47,658 bases of DNA. It comes from a virus. Taxonomy: Duplodnaviria; Heunggongvirae; Uroviricota; Caudoviricetes. The notes beneath the pieces are model-generated. The model worked only from the letters and a program-made list of their open reading frames with translations, had not been told where the DNA came from and did not search any database. The stretch is taken from IMG/VR virus record IMGVR_UViG_3300023371_000089, positions 64,001-111,658 of that record. One strand, 5' to 3'. Below are positions 32,171 to 38,599 of the stretch, piece by piece (within the stretch, counting starts at the first letter, position 1; each line of letters begins with the position of its first letter). The position numbers were made by a program, and so were the translations under genes.

Positions 32171-33358
32171 CTATTTTTTACCATATTCTTTTGCAAATTT
32201 CATCTTTTCTCTATTAGCCAATGAATTAAACTCAATGAAAAAACTTGAAAATTTATTTGAATCGAGTAATTCAAGAATATCATCTTCACGAACATAATTT
32301 GCTACATTTCCAAATGAGCGTCCTTCAGGGTCAATCGTAGCATACCTCATTGCATTTATTTCCTCCAAAGCACTTTCAGTAAGAAGAGGCTTGCGAAGAT
32401 TTATCAGTTTTTCATTAATCTCATAAAAATCGCCTTCATAATTTCTTCTTGAAATGCCGTTAACAACATTTTCCAAAAATTTCAAAGGCTTTTTCTTATT
32501 TTTAACACGTTCTTCATTCAACTCCTTTGCCCTTTCTTTAACCTCATTAACCGTAACAGGTCTATCTTTCATTTCAGGCATAATCTCAAATAATTTATTT
32601 TCCGATAGACCATCAATGTTACCAATATTATCAGAAGTGTCGCCACAAAAAATCTTTTTGATAAGCACATTTTCACTTGGGTAGCCGTTTATTGTCCTGA
32701 AATTATCATATGTGACAAACGAATTGGTTCGGGGATTAAAAATACACACATCAGGTGCAATCAATTGTGTCAAGTCCATATCTCCGGATACAATCACAAT
32801 TTTTTCATTAGGTTTCTTATTCAGAACATAGTATGCCATAATATCATCACCTTCAGTGTCCCTATCACATATACACCTTATGAAGAGTTCTTCAAAATAT
32901 CTCATCAACATCTGACGTTGACGGGCAAAATCCTCTTTCTTCTTTATCTCTTCAGGACTTTTATCCTTCTTTGGCTTCTTCTTTGAAAAGATAGCGGACC
33001 TCATCTTACGGAGGCTCTCATTATATGCTTTAGCATAATCCGATTCACCCTCCATATATGCATCATAGTTCTTGTCTCTATTAGCCTTATATTCATTATA
33101 TAACCTATAACGCATTATACCGCTATTATCATCATCGAAGACAACATATACATAATCAAAATCTTTTTTCTTAAGGAGGTTCTTCATCTTCACCAAAAAC
33201 GTGAAAAATGCACCATATTCCTCGCCACGAGTGTTAACTTTATTCGCAACCTCACATATCTTAAGAACATTAGTCCCATCCACCAATAAAGTATAAATCG
33301 GTTTCTCAGCCAATTCAGGGTGAGAAACAATAATATTCTGTCTTACAGGTTGTGCCAT
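32171..33358 (-). CDS. 5'-3' exonuclease / flap endonuclease (T4 RNase H-like) (395 aa)
   Basis: LLVDGTN, VVFD, YKANR, EGDDIMA, VSGDMDLTQL and GDTSDNI motifs. Start reassigned to ATG 33358 (MAQPV). Confidence 0.92.
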   Translation of the reverse strand: MAQPVRQNIIVSHPELAEKPIYTLLVDGTNVLKICEVANKVNTRGEEYGAFFTFLVKMKNLLKKKDFDYVYVVFDDDNSGIMRYRLYNEYKANRDKNYDAYMEGESDYAKAYNESLRKMRSAIFSKKKPKKDKSPEEIKKKEDFARQRQMLMRYFEELFIRCICDRDTEGDDIMAYYVLNKKPNEKIVIVSGDMDLTQLIAPDVCIFNPRTNSFVTYDNFRTINGYPSENVLIKKIFCGDTSDNIGNIDGLSENKLFEIMPEMKDRPVTVNEVKERAKELNEERVKNKKKPLKFLENVVNGISRRNYEGDFYEINEKLINLRKPLLTESALEEINAMRYATIDPEGRSFGNVANYVREDDILELLDSNKFSSFFIEFNSLANREKMKFAKEYGKK

Positions 33359-33362
33359 TATT

Positions 33363-33479
33363 TTACTCCCCCTCATTATCTAAACCAGAAAAAAATTCCT
33401 CAAAATCCTCTCCATCCCAAAAAAAGAAATCGTCATCAATTTCATCATCAAACCATGTTTCATCAAAATCCCTTTCCAT
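33363..33479 (-). CDS. Unannotated 38-aa acidic/aromatic peptide MERDFDETWFDDEIDDDFFFWDGEDFEEFFSGLDNEGE
   Basis: Hand-translated from ATG 33479 to TAA 33363. 18 of 38 residues are D/E and 10 are F/W. The leader is GGTAGAGGAAAACTATA-ATG and the stop lies 4 nt before the exonuclease ATG. Confidence 0.7.
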   Translation of the reverse strand: MERDFDETWFDDEIDDDFFFWDGEDFEEFFSGLDNEGE

Positions 33480-33505
33480 TATAGTTTTCCTCTACCATTT
33501 TTATC

Positions 33506-33692
33506 AACCTATCATATAATAACTAAAAACTCCTATTTTTCTATATTATATGATAGGTTATAACTTATCACATGTGTTATTTTATAACAGTTTTTTATAT
33601 ATAACTTATCGTATATAATGATTAATATAACTGTAAATATATTACCATTTAAATACAAAAATAAGGGATAAATGGTAATATATTACCATTTA
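33506..33692. repeat. Cluster of inverted and direct repeats in the AT-rich ligase-exonuclease intergenic region
   Basis: 16-bp IR 33506-33521/33544-33559; 24-bp perfect palindrome 33669-33692; 16-bp direct repeat AATATATTACCATTTA at 33636 and 33677; TATAACTTATC at 33559 and 33600. Confidence 0.9.
33656..33663 (-). promoter_or_regulatory. Probable -7 element (TATTTTTG) for the acidic peptide/exonuclease unit; no consensus -33
   Basis: TAnnTTTG match flanked by repeated 16-bp boxes; the -33 position is occupied by a palindrome. Confidence 0.5.
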
Positions 33693-35642
33693 TTACTTCA
33701 AATATTTTTCAGTAAAACCATCAATATCCATAATTTCAATACCCATCTTCTCAGCCTTTTTCATCTTGCTTGAATTTGAAGATAAGTCTTTAACAATCAA
33801 ACAGGTCGTGGCCTTTGTAACGCCATCACCAATAATACCACCAAGTTCCTCAATCTTCGAAAACATTTCTTGGTTTCTAAAACCTGTCACACAAACAACC
33901 ATCCCATTAAGAGGGCCTTCAGATACCGGGGTTGTGACATATGAAAATTTAAAATCCTCTACGAGTTCATTCCAAAATATAAGTTTCTCATATCCATCAA
34001 TGAATTTCTGAGCAGTAATTTCCTTAACACCCTCAATAGTAAGAAGATAATCCATTGCACAACCATCCATTCCACGAGCATCAATTATCTTCTGAAGAGT
34101 CTTTTCACCAAGGTCGGAAAACCATCCTGTGGCATGAAGAAACCTTGCAAACGGAAGTTCAGTCTTAATCCTATTCAGTTCAGATAAGAACTTATTGACG
34201 CTAACATCAGCCCATCCATCAAGGCCAATAAGGTCATCATATTGAAGGCCAAAGACCTCAAAATAGTTTTCTACTAAACCACATTCAAATAATTGGGTAA
34301 ATGTCTTTTCACCAAAACCATCAATGCCCGCAATTTCAAAAAATTTCACTAAAGAAGACAGTCTTCTTCCTTTACAGTAATCATTCACGCAAGCCATTTC
34401 ACACCAATCACCATCAGGCCCATAAACAGGTTGTAACTCATGTCCGCATATAGGACATTCATCCAATGAATTAACCTCATAATTATCAACCATCAGCATA
34501 GTAACACAAGACTTTCTCTCCTGAAGAGCAACCGCATATGCGTCTTCATACTCCTTGACCGTCTTATATTCTTCTCTGAAAGGAATCATCTTACCACCAA
34601 CCCCAATTACCTTAGGAATTACTTCTCCTGAACGAATAACAGTCACCATTTCCCCAGGATAAAGCATCCAATCATGGATATATCGCATATTAATCCCACT
34701 TACCCGCTGTATATCTGCACCCGCAAGATTAATAGACTCCTTAAGAATAAGAACCGGAGTTACAACACCCTCCCTATTAACACTACGTTCAATTCGGTCA
34801 ATTACCCCATAACCAACCTCAGAAAAACTTGGATGCTTATAAGCGACTGAATAACTTGGATTACCATTAGCCTCGACACTATGTCGATGCACATCCTCAT
34901 TAACATCTATCACAAGGCCGTCAATTGGATATAGTTGTTTCCACTGTATAAACATATTCAACAACTTTTCCTCAGTAAGATGATGTGGATTTGTTACCTT
35001 CTCATAGTTCTGATTCATCAATGCCATCAACTGCTCCTCCTTACTCGTCGTGGAACCTTGAATCTCATATGGCATCACTCTTAAAAGGGCGTACTCATTC
35101 TTCCTACCATTATCAAAATCTCCGTTAATCAAACCCGTTGCGGAATTCCTTTGGGACTTGGCACCCTCATTAATCTCCTTAAACTTTTTCCAATCGGCAT
35201 TGTCAATTATAATCTCCCCACGGACAACCATTTTTTCCGAAATGCTTGGTTTAAGATAAATTGCCGATACATGTTCAGTACAATCCTGCCCTGTTGTTCC
35301 ATCTCCCCTCGTCCACGATTTATCAGTACTCATTCCAACAGAAAGGCCATCATATTTAGGGGTAATGATAAACGTCGCATAAGGAAATTTCTTCATCCAA
35401 GCAATAAGGTCATCATAATTCTTAATCTTATCTAAAGACATCATTGGATAAGGTAATTTCATCTCCCTACTTTTAGGTTTTTCATCATTCACACCTTTCT
35501 TGAACCATTCATCATCAGGATTCATATCTCTAAGTTCCTGTTCAAGAGCATCATATTCAACATCGCTCATAATTGGAGTCCCTTCTCTATAAGCATCATT
35601 TGCTACCTTCAGTTCCTCCCTAATATTATTAATATTTCTCAT
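33693..35642 (-). CDS. ligA: NAD-dependent DNA ligase (649 aa)
   Basis: Domain Ia AYREGTPIMSDVEYD, adenylation motif KYDGLS, VRGE, PIDGLV, RSGEVIP, Zn finger CPIC...C...C, HhH repeats and BRCT. Confidence 0.95.
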   Translation of the reverse strand: MRNINNIREELKVANDAYREGTPIMSDVEYDALEQELRDMNPDDEWFKKGVNDEKPKSREMKLPYPMMSLDKIKNYDDLIAWMKKFPYATFIITPKYDGLSVGMSTDKSWTRGDGTTGQDCTEHVSAIYLKPSISEKMVVRGEIIIDNADWKKFKEINEGAKSQRNSATGLINGDFDNGRKNEYALLRVMPYEIQGSTTSKEEQLMALMNQNYEKVTNPHHLTEEKLLNMFIQWKQLYPIDGLVIDVNEDVHRHSVEANGNPSYSVAYKHPSFSEVGYGVIDRIERSVNREGVVTPVLILKESINLAGADIQRVSGINMRYIHDWMLYPGEMVTVIRSGEVIPKVIGVGGKMIPFREEYKTVKEYEDAYAVALQERKSCVTMLMVDNYEVNSLDECPICGHELQPVYGPDGDWCEMACVNDYCKGRRLSSLVKFFEIAGIDGFGEKTFTQLFECGLVENYFEVFGLQYDDLIGLDGWADVSVNKFLSELNRIKTELPFARFLHATGWFSDLGEKTLQKIIDARGMDGCAMDYLLTIEGVKEITAQKFIDGYEKLIFWNELVEDFKFSYVTTPVSEGPLNGMVVCVTGFRNQEMFSKIEELGGIIGDGVTKATTCLIVKDLSSNSSKMKKAEKMGIEIMDIDGFTEKYLK

Positions 35643-35722: not shown

Positions 35723-36853
35723 TTATTCAAAAGACTCTTCTTCAGTAAATTCAATTTCATCTACTGTTGCATTTTTAAGTTTACCACTCGTATCACCCGA
35801 TTTTAATTGAGCCAAAATATCAGGGAGAACCTTTTTCTTATATTCTTCAATTTCACTTTCAGCAATAATACCATGACTTGTACAAATTATTTCTCCCTCA
35901 TATGTCACGTTATACGGAGTCGGCAAATGGTTCTTCTTTATTGAAATTGGCGCTTCGGTTCCGAACACATACTTTTCACCTTTCAAAGTTGCCTGTAGTT
36001 TCTTAACACCTGACATAACAATTTTTCCACAGAAAATGAGCAAACGAAGAGCATACTCAAAACTTACGCCACCCTTGAGCTTAACCGAAGGTTTACCCAT
36101 TGTCGCCATTGATGAGTCCCAAATCTTATTCACAATAAAGAATGAATTAGTATATGGATAATTCTGACTTCTTGATGATGGAATTCTCGTATTTACAATT
36201 GTATTGAACGCAACTGATATTGAGTTAGCATCAAACATATTATTACCTGCTTTAGAAGTATATGATTTCCAACTACCAACACTACCTACTGAATCCCATA
36301 TAAAAAGAAGTTCAACAGGAAGTTCACCTGACTCCTGTTTATCAAGCAAGTCATTAATAATATATGCAATATCCTCAACTACTGCAACTTTTCTTTTAGT
36401 TGATTTTCTCGTCATAGTTGAATAATCCATATCCCCACAATATTCACAGATGGCCTCATTGTTAAAAAGGATGAAATTACCGTCATAATCAATAATTTTC
36501 TCTTCACCTGTTTCCTCATCAACACCCATAATAGGAGTTGCTTCCATACCACAATTTATTGCATATTGAAAATCAAAATTACTTTCAGTCTCAAACAATA
36601 CAGGGAGGACACCTTGACGTTGCGCAGACGCAATCAAGCAATTTTTCAATGTTGACTTACCTGTAGAATTCCAACCACAGCATCCAGAAAAATAACCTTT
36701 AGGTATTCCCGGAAGGGATAGTGCATCAACATATCCTTTAGGCATTATAAACCACTCCATTGGTTTATCCGCTGTAGTAGGTAATTTTAGATTCTTTTTA
36801 AAATCTTTAATATCAAATGCTTTAACATTTTTTTTCTTTAACGGCTGTGCCAT
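35723..36853 (-). CDS. RecA/UvsX-like recombinase (376 aa)
   Basis: Walker A GWNSTGKST, LFETES, FIWDSVG, IVNKIW, and LKGG motif. Confidence 0.88.
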   Translation of the reverse strand: MAQPLKKKNVKAFDIKDFKKNLKLPTTADKPMEWFIMPKGYVDALSLPGIPKGYFSGCCGWNSTGKSTLKNCLIASAQRQGVLPVLFETESNFDFQYAINCGMEATPIMGVDEETGEEKIIDYDGNFILFNNEAICEYCGDMDYSTMTRKSTKRKVAVVEDIAYIINDLLDKQESGELPVELLFIWDSVGSVGSWKSYTSKAGNNMFDANSISVAFNTIVNTRIPSSRSQNYPYTNSFFIVNKIWDSSMATMGKPSVKLKGGVSFEYALRLLIFCGKIVMSGVKKLQATLKGEKYVFGTEAPISIKKNHLPTPYNVTYEGEIICTSHGIIAESEIEEYKKKVLPDILAQLKSGDTSGKLKNATVDEIEFTEEESFE

Positions 36854-37597: not shown

Positions 37598-38599
37598 TTA
37601 GAATGGAAGGTCTTCCTCGTCCTTATCATCCATGAACATGGTATTCACCTCAGCCTCAGCCTTGGCCATCTGTTCTTCAACCTCAGATTCAACCTTTGCA
37701 TTAGCAGCGTCACGCTGTGCATCTGCAGTTGTCTTCGGAATCCACTTTCCTGATTCTCTATCAAACCAAGGAATCTCACCTGTACTGATAATTGAAAGAT
37801 ATTCATAAGGTTTAACAACAAAAACGTCACTCCACTTCTTTGTGTCGTTAATCCACTCACTCATGAGAGCCTCATCCTTAGAAATTGGTGTCTGAGAGAG
37901 AGCCTGTGTAACTGTTGTTGTTGTCTTATTATCCTTATCATTATCTGAACCCGAAATTGTAATAATAATGTCACGTCCCTTGAATGAATCATAAAGATTT
38001 TCCTCTACACCCTCTTCAAGTCCCTCCTTATAAAGGCGCTCCGCAAGCTTCTTAATGAGAGAATATGCATCATCACCTCTACGTGAGACATTTACTTTCC
38101 AAAACTTAGGTCCCTCAGATTCTTTGCCACGTTCAATTACGCGCATAATGATAGTCTCTCTTGCAATGTTTCCAAGAGATAGTTCTTTAAGTTTCTCCTT
38201 TTTGGTTGGGTCTGTTTCAGACACTGATTCATTATAAGCACTCCTCTGTAACTCACAGAAAGGACACTTCTTACCAAACTTCTCGTGGTCAATATCAGAC
38301 TTTTCAAGGCAGATGTATGACTTGAAACCTGATTCCGAAACCTCCTTTGGAAGCTTGTTTACTGAATGTGTGTGAACCTTGATAAATGGACTGTATCCGG
38401 GCTGTCCCGGATTAGGGAGAAGTCTGACTCTTATTTCCTTTGTCTTCTCACCATTCTTAAGACGTGTGTCAAGATAATTCTTAGGGTCAAATGAATTGAA
38501 CTTTGTTGTACCCTTATTTTCTCTCTTCGACTTCATTTCCTCCTCAATCTGAGCGAGTTCTGCAAAATTTACGCTAGGAATGTTAACCAAATTTCCCAT
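37598..38599 (-). CDS. Single-stranded DNA-binding protein (T4 gp32-like) (333 aa)
   Basis: IRVRLLP, YICL...CPFCE Zn-site pattern and acidic tail DDKDEEDLPF, within the replication block. Confidence 0.85.
   Translation of the reverse strand: MGNLVNIPSVNFAELAQIEEEMKSKRENKGTTKFNSFDPKNYLDTRLKNGEKTKEIRVRLLPNPGQPGYSPFIKVHTHSVNKLPKEVSESGFKSYICLEKSDIDHEKFGKKCPFCELQRSAYNESVSETDPTKKEKLKELSLGNIARETIIMRVIERGKESEGPKFWKVNVSRRGDDAYSLIKKLAERLYKEGLEEGVEENLYDSFKGRDIIITISGSDNDKDNKTTTTVTQALSQTPISKDEALMSEWINDTKKWSDVFVVKPYEYLSIISTGEIPWFDRESGKWIPKTTADAQRDAANAKVESEVEEQMAKAEAEVNTMFMDDKDEEDLPF

What the first reader, a model, noticed from the sequence alone, without database searches (positions are those of the whole stretch)
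33363..33479. Hidden 38-aa hyper-acidic, Phe/Trp-rich peptide coupled to the 5'-3' exonuclease: candidate DNA mimic or replisome-docking decoy
Seen: MERDFDETWFDDEIDDDFFFWDGEDFEEFFSGLDNEGE has 10 D, 8 E, 8 F, 2 W and a single basic residue. It is missed by the 60-aa ORF cutoff and stops 4 nt before the exonuclease ATG. Established: acidic plus aromatic surfaces characterise phage DNA mimics (T7 Ocr, T4 Arn, several anti-CRISPRs), SSB C-terminal tails (DDxxPF) and T4 clamp-binding LDFLF-type motifs. Inference: it may inhibit a host DNA-binding defence enzyme (restriction, BREX, Cas, RecBCD-like) or compete for SSB-tail or clamp pockets. A +1 slip at GAG-GGG-G would fuse it to the exonuclease frame (…RGSKIMAQ), but this is speculative.
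Basis: partly seen in the sequence, partly recalled or inferred. Interest (0 to 1): 0.8.

Follow-up and report, generated by a model that had tools for sequence, protein, structure and literature searches.

The report
Leftover acidic tail of phage ADP-ribosylhydrolase
The 38-codon hyper-acidic reading frame is real, but it is best read as what remains (start codon plus acidic tail) of an ADP-ribose-removing enzyme gene that sister phages still carry whole at this exact spot, so it is an evolutionary remnant that may or may not still act as a small acidic decoy.

Summary
The ORF is exactly as described: 33363-33479 on the minus strand, 10 D, 8 E, 8 F, 2 W, 1 R, with its stop 4 nt before the exonuclease ATG. 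It is the most acidic small ORF in the 111-kb record.

It occurs only in one species-level clade of a Bacteroidota jumbo phage: 7 protein variants, and the window's own variant sits on 28 contigs. It has no detectable homologue elsewhere.

The decisive result is positional. In sister phages (exonuclease 82-88% identical), the same slot holds a 308-314-aa ADP-ribosylglycohydrolase (ARH). That slot lies between the same palindrome/hairpin intergenic region and the same exonuclease start. The ARH ends in a ~50-aa disordered tail of the same rare composition (D/E 40-45%, net charge -16 to -21). Bacterial ARH homologues lack this tail.

pep38 keeps the ARH start position, an ARH-like Met-Glu-Arg start, the tail composition and the junction with the exonuclease. 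I therefore read it as an in-frame deletion of the catalytic domain. This rests on position, composition and a tree, not on an alignable sequence.

Within the clade its dN/dS is about 0.4-0.55, against 0.02-0.07 for neighbouring genes, and one lineage has a truncated form. It is probably still translated and kept open by coupling to the exonuclease. A residual decoy role is possible but unproven. The +1 frameshift idea is not supported.

The parts
33363..33479 (-). pep38 ORF: 38 codons plus TAA. A hyper-acidic, Phe/Trp-rich peptide predicted to be disordered.
   Evidence: sequence; coding score and acidity rank; 7 protein variants, same length and place; AF2 pLDDT 56, only a short helix at 23-33.
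33359..33362 (-). 4-nt spacer (AATA) between the pep38 stop and the exonuclease ATG. In relatives the slot gene's stop overlaps the exonuclease ATG (TAATG).
32171..33358 (-). 5'-3' exonuclease gene (FEN-like, PF02739), 395 aa from the ATG at 33358.
   Evidence: Pfam E 2.5e-21; phrog_107; N-terminus MAQP(V/I)R kept in nearly all relatives.
33463..33498 (-). Out-of-frame 11-codon upstream mini-ORF. Its ATG (33498) lies 19 nt upstream of the pep38 ATG and its TGA lies inside pep38. It could compete with pep38 initiation.
   Evidence: Read. Present in the pep38 clade; L074 and L076 have no ATG in the corresponding leader.
33506..33559 (.). Inverted repeat with 24-nt arms (hairpin) about 25-30 nt upstream of the slot gene's ATG. 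Conserved in the ARH-bearing sister phages.
   Evidence: I2, 88% complementary; blastn 82-88% identity, same distance to the ATG.
33656..33663 (-). The only Bacteroidota-type -7 promoter motif (TATTTTTG, matching TAnnTTTG) between the ligase and pep38. Likely promoter of the pep38-exonuclease unit.
   Evidence: Flanked by the palindromes. Function inferred.
33627..33692 (.). A 24-bp perfect palindrome (33669-33692) and a partial second copy (33627-33651) bracketing the promoter motif. Operator-like, and conserved in sister phages.
33693..35642 (-). NAD-dependent DNA ligase gene, the conserved left flank of the variable slot.
   Evidence: Synteny.

Best explanation
pep38 is what is left of a phage ADP-ribosylglycohydrolase (ARH, PF03747) gene after an in-frame deletion removed the roughly 260-residue catalytic domain.

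What remains:
- the promoter/operator region, the conserved hairpin and the start position of the gene that fills this slot in sister phages (the short leader between hairpin and ATG is not conserved in sequence);
- an ARH-like Met-Glu-Arg start;
- about 35 codons with the composition of the enzyme's disordered, hyper-acidic, aromatic C-terminal tail;
- the tight stop-start junction with the 5'-3' exonuclease gene.

The slot between the ligase and the exonuclease is a hypervariable accessory locus. It holds an ARH in the nearest relatives, a DNA methyltransferase or a WG-repeat protein in more distant ones, and other genes further out.

Inferred mechanism. The remnant is still transcribed from the slot's promoter and probably still translated into a 4.7-kDa disordered polyanion. 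The frame stays open mainly because, in this Shine-Dalgarno-less phage, exonuclease translation rides on ribosomes terminating right at its start codon. Any trans activity would be what the tail did on the enzyme: binding a basic, probably nucleic-acid-binding, partner.

My sub-odds: pep38 corresponds to the ARH tail, about 0.85. Given that, the direction is deletion rather than fusion, about 0.75. It is translated, about 0.65. The peptide has a selected function of its own, about 0.3.
For: Shown by tool results:
1. The slot differs among relatives. Sister phages with exonuclease 85-88% identical carry ligase, then a 308-aa ARH, then the exonuclease, with the ARH stop overlapping the exonuclease ATG. 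A 77% relative has an N6/N4 methyltransferase there, and a 69% relative a WG-repeat protein.
2. Both flanks are homologous. The palindromes and hairpin of the intergenic region match at 82-88% identity. The ATG lies at the same distance (24-29 nt) from the hairpin, and the exonuclease start is identical.
3. All nine distinct phage ARHs examined (P0129-P0134 and P0138-P0140, 308-314 aa) end in a 47-53-aa tail with D/E 0.40-0.45, net charge -16 to -21 and aromatics 8-19%. pep38 has D/E 0.47 and net charge -17.
4. Bacterial homologues (about 60-65% identical, some named as Alistipes proteins) stop at the end of the catalytic domain.
5. Tails are only 23-55% identical where the catalytic domains are 77-90% identical, yet length and charge are held. 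Fast sequence turnover is therefore normal for this module.
6. pep38 starts Met-Glu-Arg, like the ARHs of L083, P0132 and P0133 (Met-Glu-Arg-Gly-Ile-Ile-Gly). Its only basic residue sits at position 3, where every phage ARH has R, K or H.
7. In the exonuclease tree the pep38 clade (100/100) is sister to P0010(ARH)+P0012 (95/89). That group sits inside a clade (99/93) whose other branch also carries the ARH.
8. AlphaFold2 of the ARH gives a confident domain and a disordered tail with one short C-terminal helix, the same picture as pep38 alone.
9. Within the pep38 clade, dN/dS is about 0.55 pairwise and about 0.4 over 10 sequences, against 0.02-0.07 for five flanking genes. One lineage (L036, L037) has a frameshifted 32-aa form that keeps residues 1-30.

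From the sequence: overlapping or abutting stop-start junctions are frequent in this window, and no promoter motif lies inside pep38.
Against: 1. Residue-order or base-order similarity between pep38 and the ARH tails is not significant once composition is controlled. Smith-Waterman gives p 0.04-0.5, a profile HMM of the tails gives p about 0.5, and DNA against codon shuffles gives p 0.11-0.63. Common origin therefore rests on position, composition and the start codons.
2. The direction of change is not proven. With only taxa of known slot state the tree is a trichotomy, and the AU test does not reject ARH-bearers forming one clade (p = 0.099). Phage mosaicism could also uncouple the slot from the exonuclease tree.
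3. The leader between the hairpin and the ATG is not conserved in sequence between the pep38 clade and the ARH bearers.
4. An out-of-frame upstream ATG 19 nt before the pep38 ATG may divert ribosomes.
6. The close relatives were found through their predicted peptide, so lineages with a destroyed ORF would have been missed.
7. An in-frame outcome has a 1-in-3 chance, and 14 substitutions leave an ORF intact about half the time. ORF survival is therefore weak evidence of selection.
Confidence: 0.55

Rival explanations
1. A stand-alone functional decoy, essentially the first reader's idea in updated form. The acidic tail is an autonomous module that binds a basic DNA- or RNA-binding host protein, such as an ADP-ribosyltransferase defence toxin, a nuclease or a nucleoid protein. 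The pep38 lineage keeps that inhibitor after shedding the enzyme. It would act as a disordered polyanionic competitor of nucleic acid.
For: - The slot carries counter-defence-type genes in relatives: an ARH and a DNA methyltransferase.
- Charge and length of the tail are held constant across ARHs despite rapid sequence turnover, the signature of a selected disordered module.
- pep38 keeps that charge, and residues 1-30 stay in frame in all 7 variants.
- The identical peptide occurs on 28 contigs.
- Phage ADP-ribose erasers are established counter-defence enzymes, and DarG2 pairs its eraser domain with a toxin-binding domain (PMC11825919).
- T7 places its small acidic RecBCD inhibitor gp5.9 directly upstream of, and overlapping, its 5'-3' exonuclease gene (PMC9836394).
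Against: - dN/dS of 0.4-0.55 cannot be distinguished from near-neutral drift with these numbers.
- A truncated natural variant exists.
- Known DNA mimics are folded and often dimeric, whereas pep38 is predicted to be disordered.
- There is no homology to any mimic, anti-CRISPR or PADLOC-era family that I could search.
- No partner is known.
- The clade is very narrow.
Confidence: 0.25
2. The direction is reversed. A small acidic gene upstream of the exonuclease is ancestral, and the sister lineage inserted a host-derived ARH in front of it and fused the two. pep38 would then be the unfused ancestor, not a remnant.
For: - Bacterial ARHs lack the tail, so the tail was added in phages.
- Six of eight distinct tails have a Met-Glu, or a Met close by, two to five residues past the end of the catalytic domain (GDMEAF, GELEMC). 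That could be a fossil start codon.
- The AU test does not reject ARH-bearers forming one clade (p = 0.099).
Against: - The larger exonuclease tree nests pep38 among ARH bearers (95/89 and 99/93).
- The pep38 start matches the ARH N-terminus (Met-Glu-Arg, basic residue at position 3), not the internal Met-Glu-Ala.
- A single deletion is mechanistically simpler than an insertion followed by a fusion.
Confidence: 0.15
3. A silent relic. The frame is open only because the deletion is recent. It is not translated to any useful level, and it is simply part of the exonuclease mRNA leader.
For: - Substitution pattern near neutral.
- The region is more variable (12% of columns) than the intergenic region (8.5%) or the flanking genes (6-7%).
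- A competing upstream ATG and a frameshift variant exist.
- No SD-type signal is used in this phage.
Against: - It keeps the slot's start position and A-rich start context.
- Non-synonymous change, about 0.10 per site, is well below the synonymous rate of the flanking genes, about 0.25-0.29 (my arithmetic on the counts).
- No early stop or start loss occurs in 10 DNA sequences, although ascertainment is biased.
Confidence: 0.15
4. A regulator or chaperone of the exonuclease. The polyanion occupies the basic DNA-binding groove of the co-translated FEN-like exonuclease.
For: Adjacent genes that are probably coupled in translation. Nuclease-inhibitor gene pairs are a well-known arrangement (general knowledge).
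Against: Exonuclease homologues at 50-88% identity work without it. In sister phages the same tail is attached to an unrelated enzyme.
Confidence: 0.05
5. A programmed +1 frameshift at GAG-GGG-G fuses pep38 to the exonuclease as an acidic N-terminal extension.
For: The geometry is right. The exonuclease is in the +1 frame, and that frame is open for 6 codons before the ATG.
Against: - The G5 run is interrupted in six of the nine relatives: GGGAG in L031-L035 and GGGGA in L038. It is lengthened to G6 in L036 and L037.
- No slow codon follows the run.
- The exonuclease starts at MAQP(V/I)R behind every kind of upstream gene seen.
Confidence: 0.01

Closest known systems
C-terminal acidic tail of the phage ADP-ribosylglycohydrolases at the same locus (P0129-P0140; loci L074-L077, L082, L083)
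   Same: Same genomic slot, with homologous flanks on both sides. Same rare composition, net charge and predicted disorder. Same abutment to the exonuclease start codon, and an ARH-like start (Met-Glu-Arg).
   Different: pep38 has no catalytic domain. It is shorter (38 against 47-53 aa) and richer in Phe/Trp (26% against 8-19%). Its residue order cannot be aligned to the tails beyond what composition gives.
T7 gp5.9 (52-aa acidic RecBCD inhibitor, a coiled-coil DNA mimic; PMC9836394)
   Same: A small acidic phage protein whose gene lies immediately upstream of, and is coupled to, the phage 5'-3' exonuclease gene. An accessory counter-defence role is plausible for both.
   Different: No sequence similarity (BLASTP E = 6.5). 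gp5.9 is a folded parallel coiled-coil dimer with net charge about -8. pep38 has net charge -17, is aromatic-rich and is predicted to be disordered. The host here is a Bacteroidota member, and no target is known.
Folded phage DNA mimics (T7 Ocr, T4 Arn, lambda Gam, SPO1 Gp44/Gp46, Ugi)
   Same: Strong negative charge and a phage accessory context.
   Different: Those are 50-120-aa or longer folded proteins that display carboxylates on a rigid scaffold. pep38 has no predicted fold and no homology to any solved chain.
SSB C-terminal tip (D-D-D-I/L-P-F) and acidic tails of T7 gp2.5 or T4 gp32
   Same: An acidic stretch with phenylalanines, which in those proteins docks into basic/hydrophobic pockets of partner proteins.
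   Different: The defining C-terminal Pro-Phe-COOH is absent, because pep38 ends in NEGE. The phage's own SSB carries a canonical DEEDLPF tip.
DarG2-type two-part antitoxins and phage ADP-ribose erasers (AdfN; PMC11825919)
   Same: By analogy only: an ADP-ribose-removing domain combined with a second module that could bind the toxin. The phage ARH plus tail may be organised this way.
   Different: Different enzyme family (ARH/DraG-like, not macrodomain or NADAR). No toxin is identified. The tail is a disordered polyanion, not a folded domain.

Membership tests
ADP-ribosylglycohydrolase (PF03747) | Catalytic ARH fold of about 260 aa with a di-metal site | tested here: not met
   pep38 has no Pfam hit. 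tblastn with ARH proteins finds no catalytic remnant in the 111-kb record. Only the start codons and the tail-like part remain.
ARH C-terminal tail module of this phage clade | Lies directly before the exonuclease ATG, behind the conserved palindrome/hairpin region | tested here: met
ARH C-terminal tail module of this phage clade | D/E at least 40%, net charge -16 to -21, aromatic-rich, disordered | tested here: met
   pep38 D/E 0.47, net -17; low pLDDT, one short helix.
ARH C-terminal tail module of this phage clade | Alignable residue order | tested here: inconclusive
   Shuffle-controlled Smith-Waterman, HMM and DNA tests are not significant. The tails themselves are only 23-55% identical to each other.
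DNA mimic proteins (Ocr, Arn, Gam, gp5.9) | High density of surface carboxylates | tested here: met
   18 D/E in 38 residues.
DNA mimic proteins (Ocr, Arn, Gam, gp5.9) | A stable fold or dimer presenting charges with DNA-like geometry | tested here: not met
   AF2 mean pLDDT 56, pTM 0.22, only a short helix. Helical hydrophobic moment is no better than shuffles. A prediction, not a measurement.
DNA mimic proteins (Ocr, Arn, Gam, gp5.9) | Binds the DNA site of a DNA-binding protein | not testable with these tools
   No candidate partner is known, and the host genome is not identified.
T7 gp5.9-like RecBCD inhibitor | Sequence homology to gp5.9 | tested here: not met
   BLASTP E = 6.5. No PHROG or Pfam hit.
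SSB C-terminal tip mimic | C-terminal acidic run ending in (I/L)-P-F-COOH | tested here: not met
   pep38 ends in LDNEGE. The phage SSB (37598-38599) ends in DEEDLPF.
Programmed +1 frameshift site | A conserved slippery run plus a slow codon, with a conserved fusion frame | tested here: not met
   The G-run varies among close relatives. The exonuclease start is conserved as its own ATG.

The most novel reading that the evidence does not exclude
The hyper-acidic aromatic tail is a portable nucleic-acid-mimicking inhibitor module. On the phage ARH it forms a two-pronged counter-defence against an ADP-ribosylating defence toxin: the enzyme erases the mark while the tail blocks the toxin's DNA/RNA groove. 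This would be analogous to DarG2. The pep38 lineage would have kept only the inhibitor prong, as a 38-residue disordered stand-alone anti-defence peptide, one of the smallest known.
Probability: 0.12. Interest if true: 0.75.

Novelty: new variant of a known kind. Interest (0 to 1): 0.36.

Why it matters
Two things are worth keeping.

First, this is a clean natural example of how a "hidden" orphan mini-gene can arise. An enzyme gene collapses to its start codon plus its disordered tail while keeping the expression signals and the coupling to the next gene. Extreme composition and a high coding score then reflect ancestry, and need not reflect current function. That is a caution for small-ORF discovery in phages.

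Second, the comparison exposes an apparently undescribed feature. A clade of Bacteroidota jumbo-phage ADP-ribosylglycohydrolases carries a charge-conserved, sequence-fluid acidic tail that its bacterial homologues lack. The gene sits in a slot that swaps counter-defence-type genes. If that tail is a partner-docking or toxin-blocking module, pep38 offers a natural tail-only test case.

Tried and rejected
- **Peptide-exonuclease complex** (complex prediction with alignments A2 and A1): no verdict, score 0.01. It counts neither for nor against binding. The first attempt failed because the machine was busy.
- **Family and structure searches with pep38:** Pfam and PHROGs gave no hits. The PDB profile search found nothing at E up to 10. 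tblastn against 50,697 GenBank phages found nothing, and blastn of the locus against the same set found nothing.
- **ESM Atlas:** best feature score 0.80, which is chance level, and no structure is held.
- **phmmer against 1.84 billion representatives:** only the peptide's own 50% cluster.
- **Five large relatives (G001-G005):** no match to the peptide.
- **Composition scan of a complete 355-kb relative:** no analogous small ORF.
- **Exact-pattern scans of IMG/VR:** the exonuclease 5' end gave no hits, and near records are withheld. The 15-nt hairpin pattern gave 117 or more chance hits, none next to an exonuclease. That scan was wasted.
- **Order-specific homology tests of pep38 against the ARH tails** (Smith-Waterman, HMM, DNA, all against shuffles): not significant.
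- **Sigma-70 promoter overlapping the ATG** (TTGATA-18-TATAAT, 11 of 12): discounted. The phage and its host use Bacteroidota-type promoters and no SD.
- **Rfam:** only a sub-threshold miRNA-like hit on the hairpin.
It was rerun with four extra in-frame upstream codons from the window to reach the 40-aa minimum.
- **Amphipathic-helix idea:** rejected, because the helical moment is no better than shuffles.

Full report
**1.
On the minus strand an ATG at 33479 opens a 38-codon frame that ends with TAA at 33365-33363. Four bases later (33358) the 5'-3' exonuclease gene starts (PF02739, E 2.5e-21). The composition is as reported: 10 D, 8 E, 8 F, 2 W and one R. Net charge is about -17.5 and mass 4.7 kDa.

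The frame is not a chance ORF. Among 1,164 ORFs of at least 25 aa in the 111-kb record it is by far the most acidic. Its codon-usage score is +19.5 bits in frame and negative in both other frames, which puts it in the top 0.2% of 30-50-aa ORFs.

**2. Context.**
The window is part of a 111.7-kb fragment (CheckV 31%) of a jumbo phage whose relatives reach 200-355 kb. On the minus strand the neighbourhood reads: SSB, thymidine kinase, RecA-like protein, NAD-ligase, a 213-nt palindrome-rich intergenic region, pep38, exonuclease, a 241-aa unknown protein, and a DnaB-like helicase.

The phage does not use Shine-Dalgarno sequences. GGAG or GAGG occur upstream of 2% of its genes, against a 3-4% background. 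It has A-rich leaders and Bacteroidota-type TAnnTTTG promoter motifs close to many starts. The SD-like strings near pep38 and the exonuclease therefore carry no weight. The sigma-70-like promoter that overlaps the pep38 ATG is discounted for the same reason.

The only TAnnTTTG motif between the ligase and pep38 lies at 33663-33656, bracketed by the palindromes. No promoter motif lies inside pep38. The ORF is therefore part of the exonuclease transcript (inference).

**3. Distribution.**
An exhaustive phmmer search of 1.84 billion representatives found a single cluster. The word-indexed search and the cluster listing gave seven protein variants, 84-92% identical to the window's and 32-39 aa long. 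The window's exact peptide occurs on 28 contigs, the longest of 349.8 kb.

All variants for which gene calls or DNA were returned lie between the ligase and the exonuclease, in phages about 95% identical in DNA. The peptide is absent in several other sets:
- upstream of the exonuclease in 22 IMG/VR and 14 metagenome relatives (exonuclease 50-59% identical);
- in five large relatives searched whole;
- as a composition type, in a complete 355-kb relative.

**4. Selection within the clade.**
Against the 95.5%-identical locus L031, pep38 has 7 non-synonymous and 2 synonymous differences, giving dN/dS 0.55. Six flanking genes give 0.02-0.07.

Over ten DNA sequences, 14 of 114 columns vary. I count about 10 amino-acid-changing and 4 silent events. 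The first 199 exonuclease codons show 6 variable codons with an amino-acid change and 34 with silent changes only.

Non-synonymous change in pep38, about 0.10 per site, is below the synonymous rate of the neighbours, about 0.25-0.29. The intergenic region (0.085) is equally constrained. The data therefore do not separate protein-level from nucleotide-level constraint.

L036 and L037 carry a -1 change in the T7 run and a +1 change in the G run. This yields a 32-aa product that keeps residues 1-30.

The relatives were found through their predicted peptides. Lineages with a destroyed ORF would therefore have been missed.

**5. The decisive comparison.**
A search with the exonuclease gave a graded series of relatives. 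Fetching their contigs showed that the slot between the ligase and the exonuclease is hypervariable:

| Exonuclease identity to the window | Gene in the slot |
|---|---|
| 85-88% | 308-aa ADP-ribosylglycohydrolase (PF03747), its stop overlapping the exonuclease ATG (TAATG) |
| 77% | N6/N4 DNA methyltransferase, also TAATG-coupled |
| 69% | WG-repeat protein |
| about 59% and below | RecA-like, PhoH-like or endonuclease-like genes |

The intergenic region of the ARH-bearing phages is homologous to the window's. The palindromes and the 24-nt-arm hairpin match at 82-88%, and the slot gene's ATG lies 24-29 nt after the hairpin in all of them.

Every phage ARH at this locus (308-314 aa) ends in a 47-53-aa tail with D/E 0.40-0.45, net charge -16 to -21 and many aromatic residues. 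Motifs such as WFD(D/E)D and DIEE(F/Y)E occur in it. The bacterial homologues examined are about 60-65% identical, and several are named as Alistipes proteins, which points to the likely host group. They end at the catalytic domain or carry other extensions.

pep38 has the same charge (-17) and D/E fraction (0.47). It sits in the same place against the exonuclease start. It begins Met-Glu-Arg, like the ARHs of L083, P0132 and P0133 (Met-Glu-Arg-Gly-Ile-Ile-Gly). Its single basic residue is at position 3, where all phage ARHs have R, K or H.

AlphaFold2 models the ARH domain confidently (pLDDT above 88 over most of residues 1-260). The tail comes out disordered, with one short helix near the end. 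pep38 folded alone gives the same picture: pLDDT 56 and a helix at 23-33.

**6. Limits of that inference.**
Residue order and base order of pep38 are not more similar to the tails than shuffled versions are. This is unsurprising, since the tails themselves are only 23-55% identical where their catalytic domains are 77-90% identical. It does mean that common origin rests on position, on a rare shared composition and on the start codons. Three of the several hundred ORFs of a 355-kb relative contain a comparably acidic, aromatic stretch.

The direction of change is favoured but not proven. In a 27-row exonuclease tree the pep38 clade is sister to P0010(ARH)+P0012 (95/89). That group lies inside a 99/93 clade whose other half also bears the ARH. 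With only taxa of known slot state the three groups form a trichotomy, and the AU test does not reject ARH-bearers forming one clade (p = 0.099).

**7. How it most likely works.**
Shown: pep38 occupies the ARH slot with the slot's upstream signals and the junction to the exonuclease.

Inferred:
- An in-frame deletion removed ARH codons from about 4 to about 270.
- The remnant is still translated.
- The frame is kept open chiefly because ribosomes terminating at the exonuclease start support its translation in an SD-less system. In the ARH- and methyltransferase-bearing relatives the stop of the slot gene overlaps or nearly abuts the exonuclease ATG.
- Fast amino-acid turnover and tolerance of a truncated end fit this reading.

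An 11-codon out-of-frame mini-ORF starting 19 nt upstream (33498-33463) may reduce pep38 initiation.

A residual trans function remains possible but untested. That would be the tail's presumed binding to a basic partner. Both the ARH domain (net -9 to -12) and the tail are acidic, so intramolecular docking is unlikely.

**8.
- The SSB-tip idea fails. pep38 ends in NEGE, while the phage SSB itself ends in DEEDLPF.
- There is no clamp-binding motif.
- The +1 frameshift fails on conservation. The G-run is interrupted in L031-L035 and in L038. The exonuclease starts at its own conserved MAQP(V/I)R behind every upstream gene type seen.
- The DNA-mimic idea is neither supported nor excluded. There is no homology to any known mimic and no predicted fold.
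- A positional parallel does exist. T7 gp5.9, a 52-aa acidic RecBCD-blocking DNA mimic, lies immediately upstream of, and overlaps, T7's 5'-3' exonuclease gene (PMC9836394). Phage ADP-ribose erasers are established counter-defence enzymes (PMC11825919).

**9. Earlier scan notes.**
Earlier notes of this scan report an acidic "docking" tail on a huge-phage ARH (e1-1603536) and an acidic C-terminal module on a phage macrodomain (e1-163266), both in other genomes. I did not test them. They suggest that acidic tails on phage ADP-ribose erasers may recur. A full-text search found no paper describing such tails.

**10. Verdict.**
This is a real ORF with an ordinary origin, a gene remnant, and an uncertain function. 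It is of moderate interest as a case study, and for the undescribed tail on the sister phages' enzyme.

Noticed in passing
window 33359-33692, and loci L074-L083: The interval between the NAD-ligase and the 5'-3' exonuclease is a gene-swapping slot. It holds an ADP-ribosylglycohydrolase, an N6/N4 DNA methyltransferase, a WG-repeat protein or pep38 in otherwise syntenic phages. In the ARH and methyltransferase cases the slot gene's stop overlaps or nearly abuts the exonuclease ATG.
   Followed up: yes
L074:2075-3001, L076:2075-3001, L082:2501-3439, L083:2501-3439 (proteins P0129-P0140): The phage ARHs are about 60-65% identical to bacterial ARHs, some of them named as Alistipes proteins. They have gained a 47-53-aa disordered acidic tail whose charge and length are conserved while its sequence turns over 4-5 times faster than the catalytic domain. 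This suggests host gene capture and an Alistipes/Rikenellaceae-type host.
   Followed up: partly
window 37598-38599 (-): The phage SSB-like protein (phrog_1192) ends in a canonical bacterial-type SSB tip (DEEDLPF). It could therefore use or compete for host SSB-tip-binding partners.
   Followed up: no
window 33506-33559 and 33627-33692: The 24-nt-arm hairpin and the palindrome pair around a TAnnTTTG motif are conserved at 82-88% in phages whose exonuclease has diverged 12-15%. They are as constrained as coding sequence and look like an operator/promoter plus a leader structure.
   Followed up: partly
L036:2001-2125 and L037:550-675: Two homopolymer changes 28 nt apart (T7 to T6, G5 to G6) keep the total length. 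The G6 version alone would restore an ARH-like ending (EGGVK, with TAATG overlap on the exonuclease start). This may be an ancestral-like 3' end or an assembly artefact.
   Followed up: partly
whole record (G000), upstream regions of genes: There is no Shine-Dalgarno enrichment. A-rich leaders are the rule. TAnnTTTG motifs and a second recurrent motif, CTATTTAT(A/T), lie about 20-25 nt upstream of several starts and may mark a phage-specific promoter class.
   Followed up: partly
G000:C1:5089-5304 (-), outside the window: A second small acidic, aromatic-rich ORF of 71 aa, with 17 D/E, 12 F/W/Y and a positive coding score (its C-terminal half contains EYEAWASEWEDEWGEYDG).
   Followed up: no
window 35723-36853 (-), and relatives L009-L015, L059: The RecA/UvsX-like protein ends in a conserved short acidic-aromatic tail (EFTEEESFE here, SFEEEDNFDE in relatives). 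In more distant relatives this gene lies directly upstream of the exonuclease.
   Followed up: no
complete relative G004 (loci L041-L058): The complete 355-kb relative has no homologue of the NAD-ligase or the thymidine kinase at E < 1e-5. In it, about 7 kb separates the RecA-like gene from the exonuclease.
   Followed up: no
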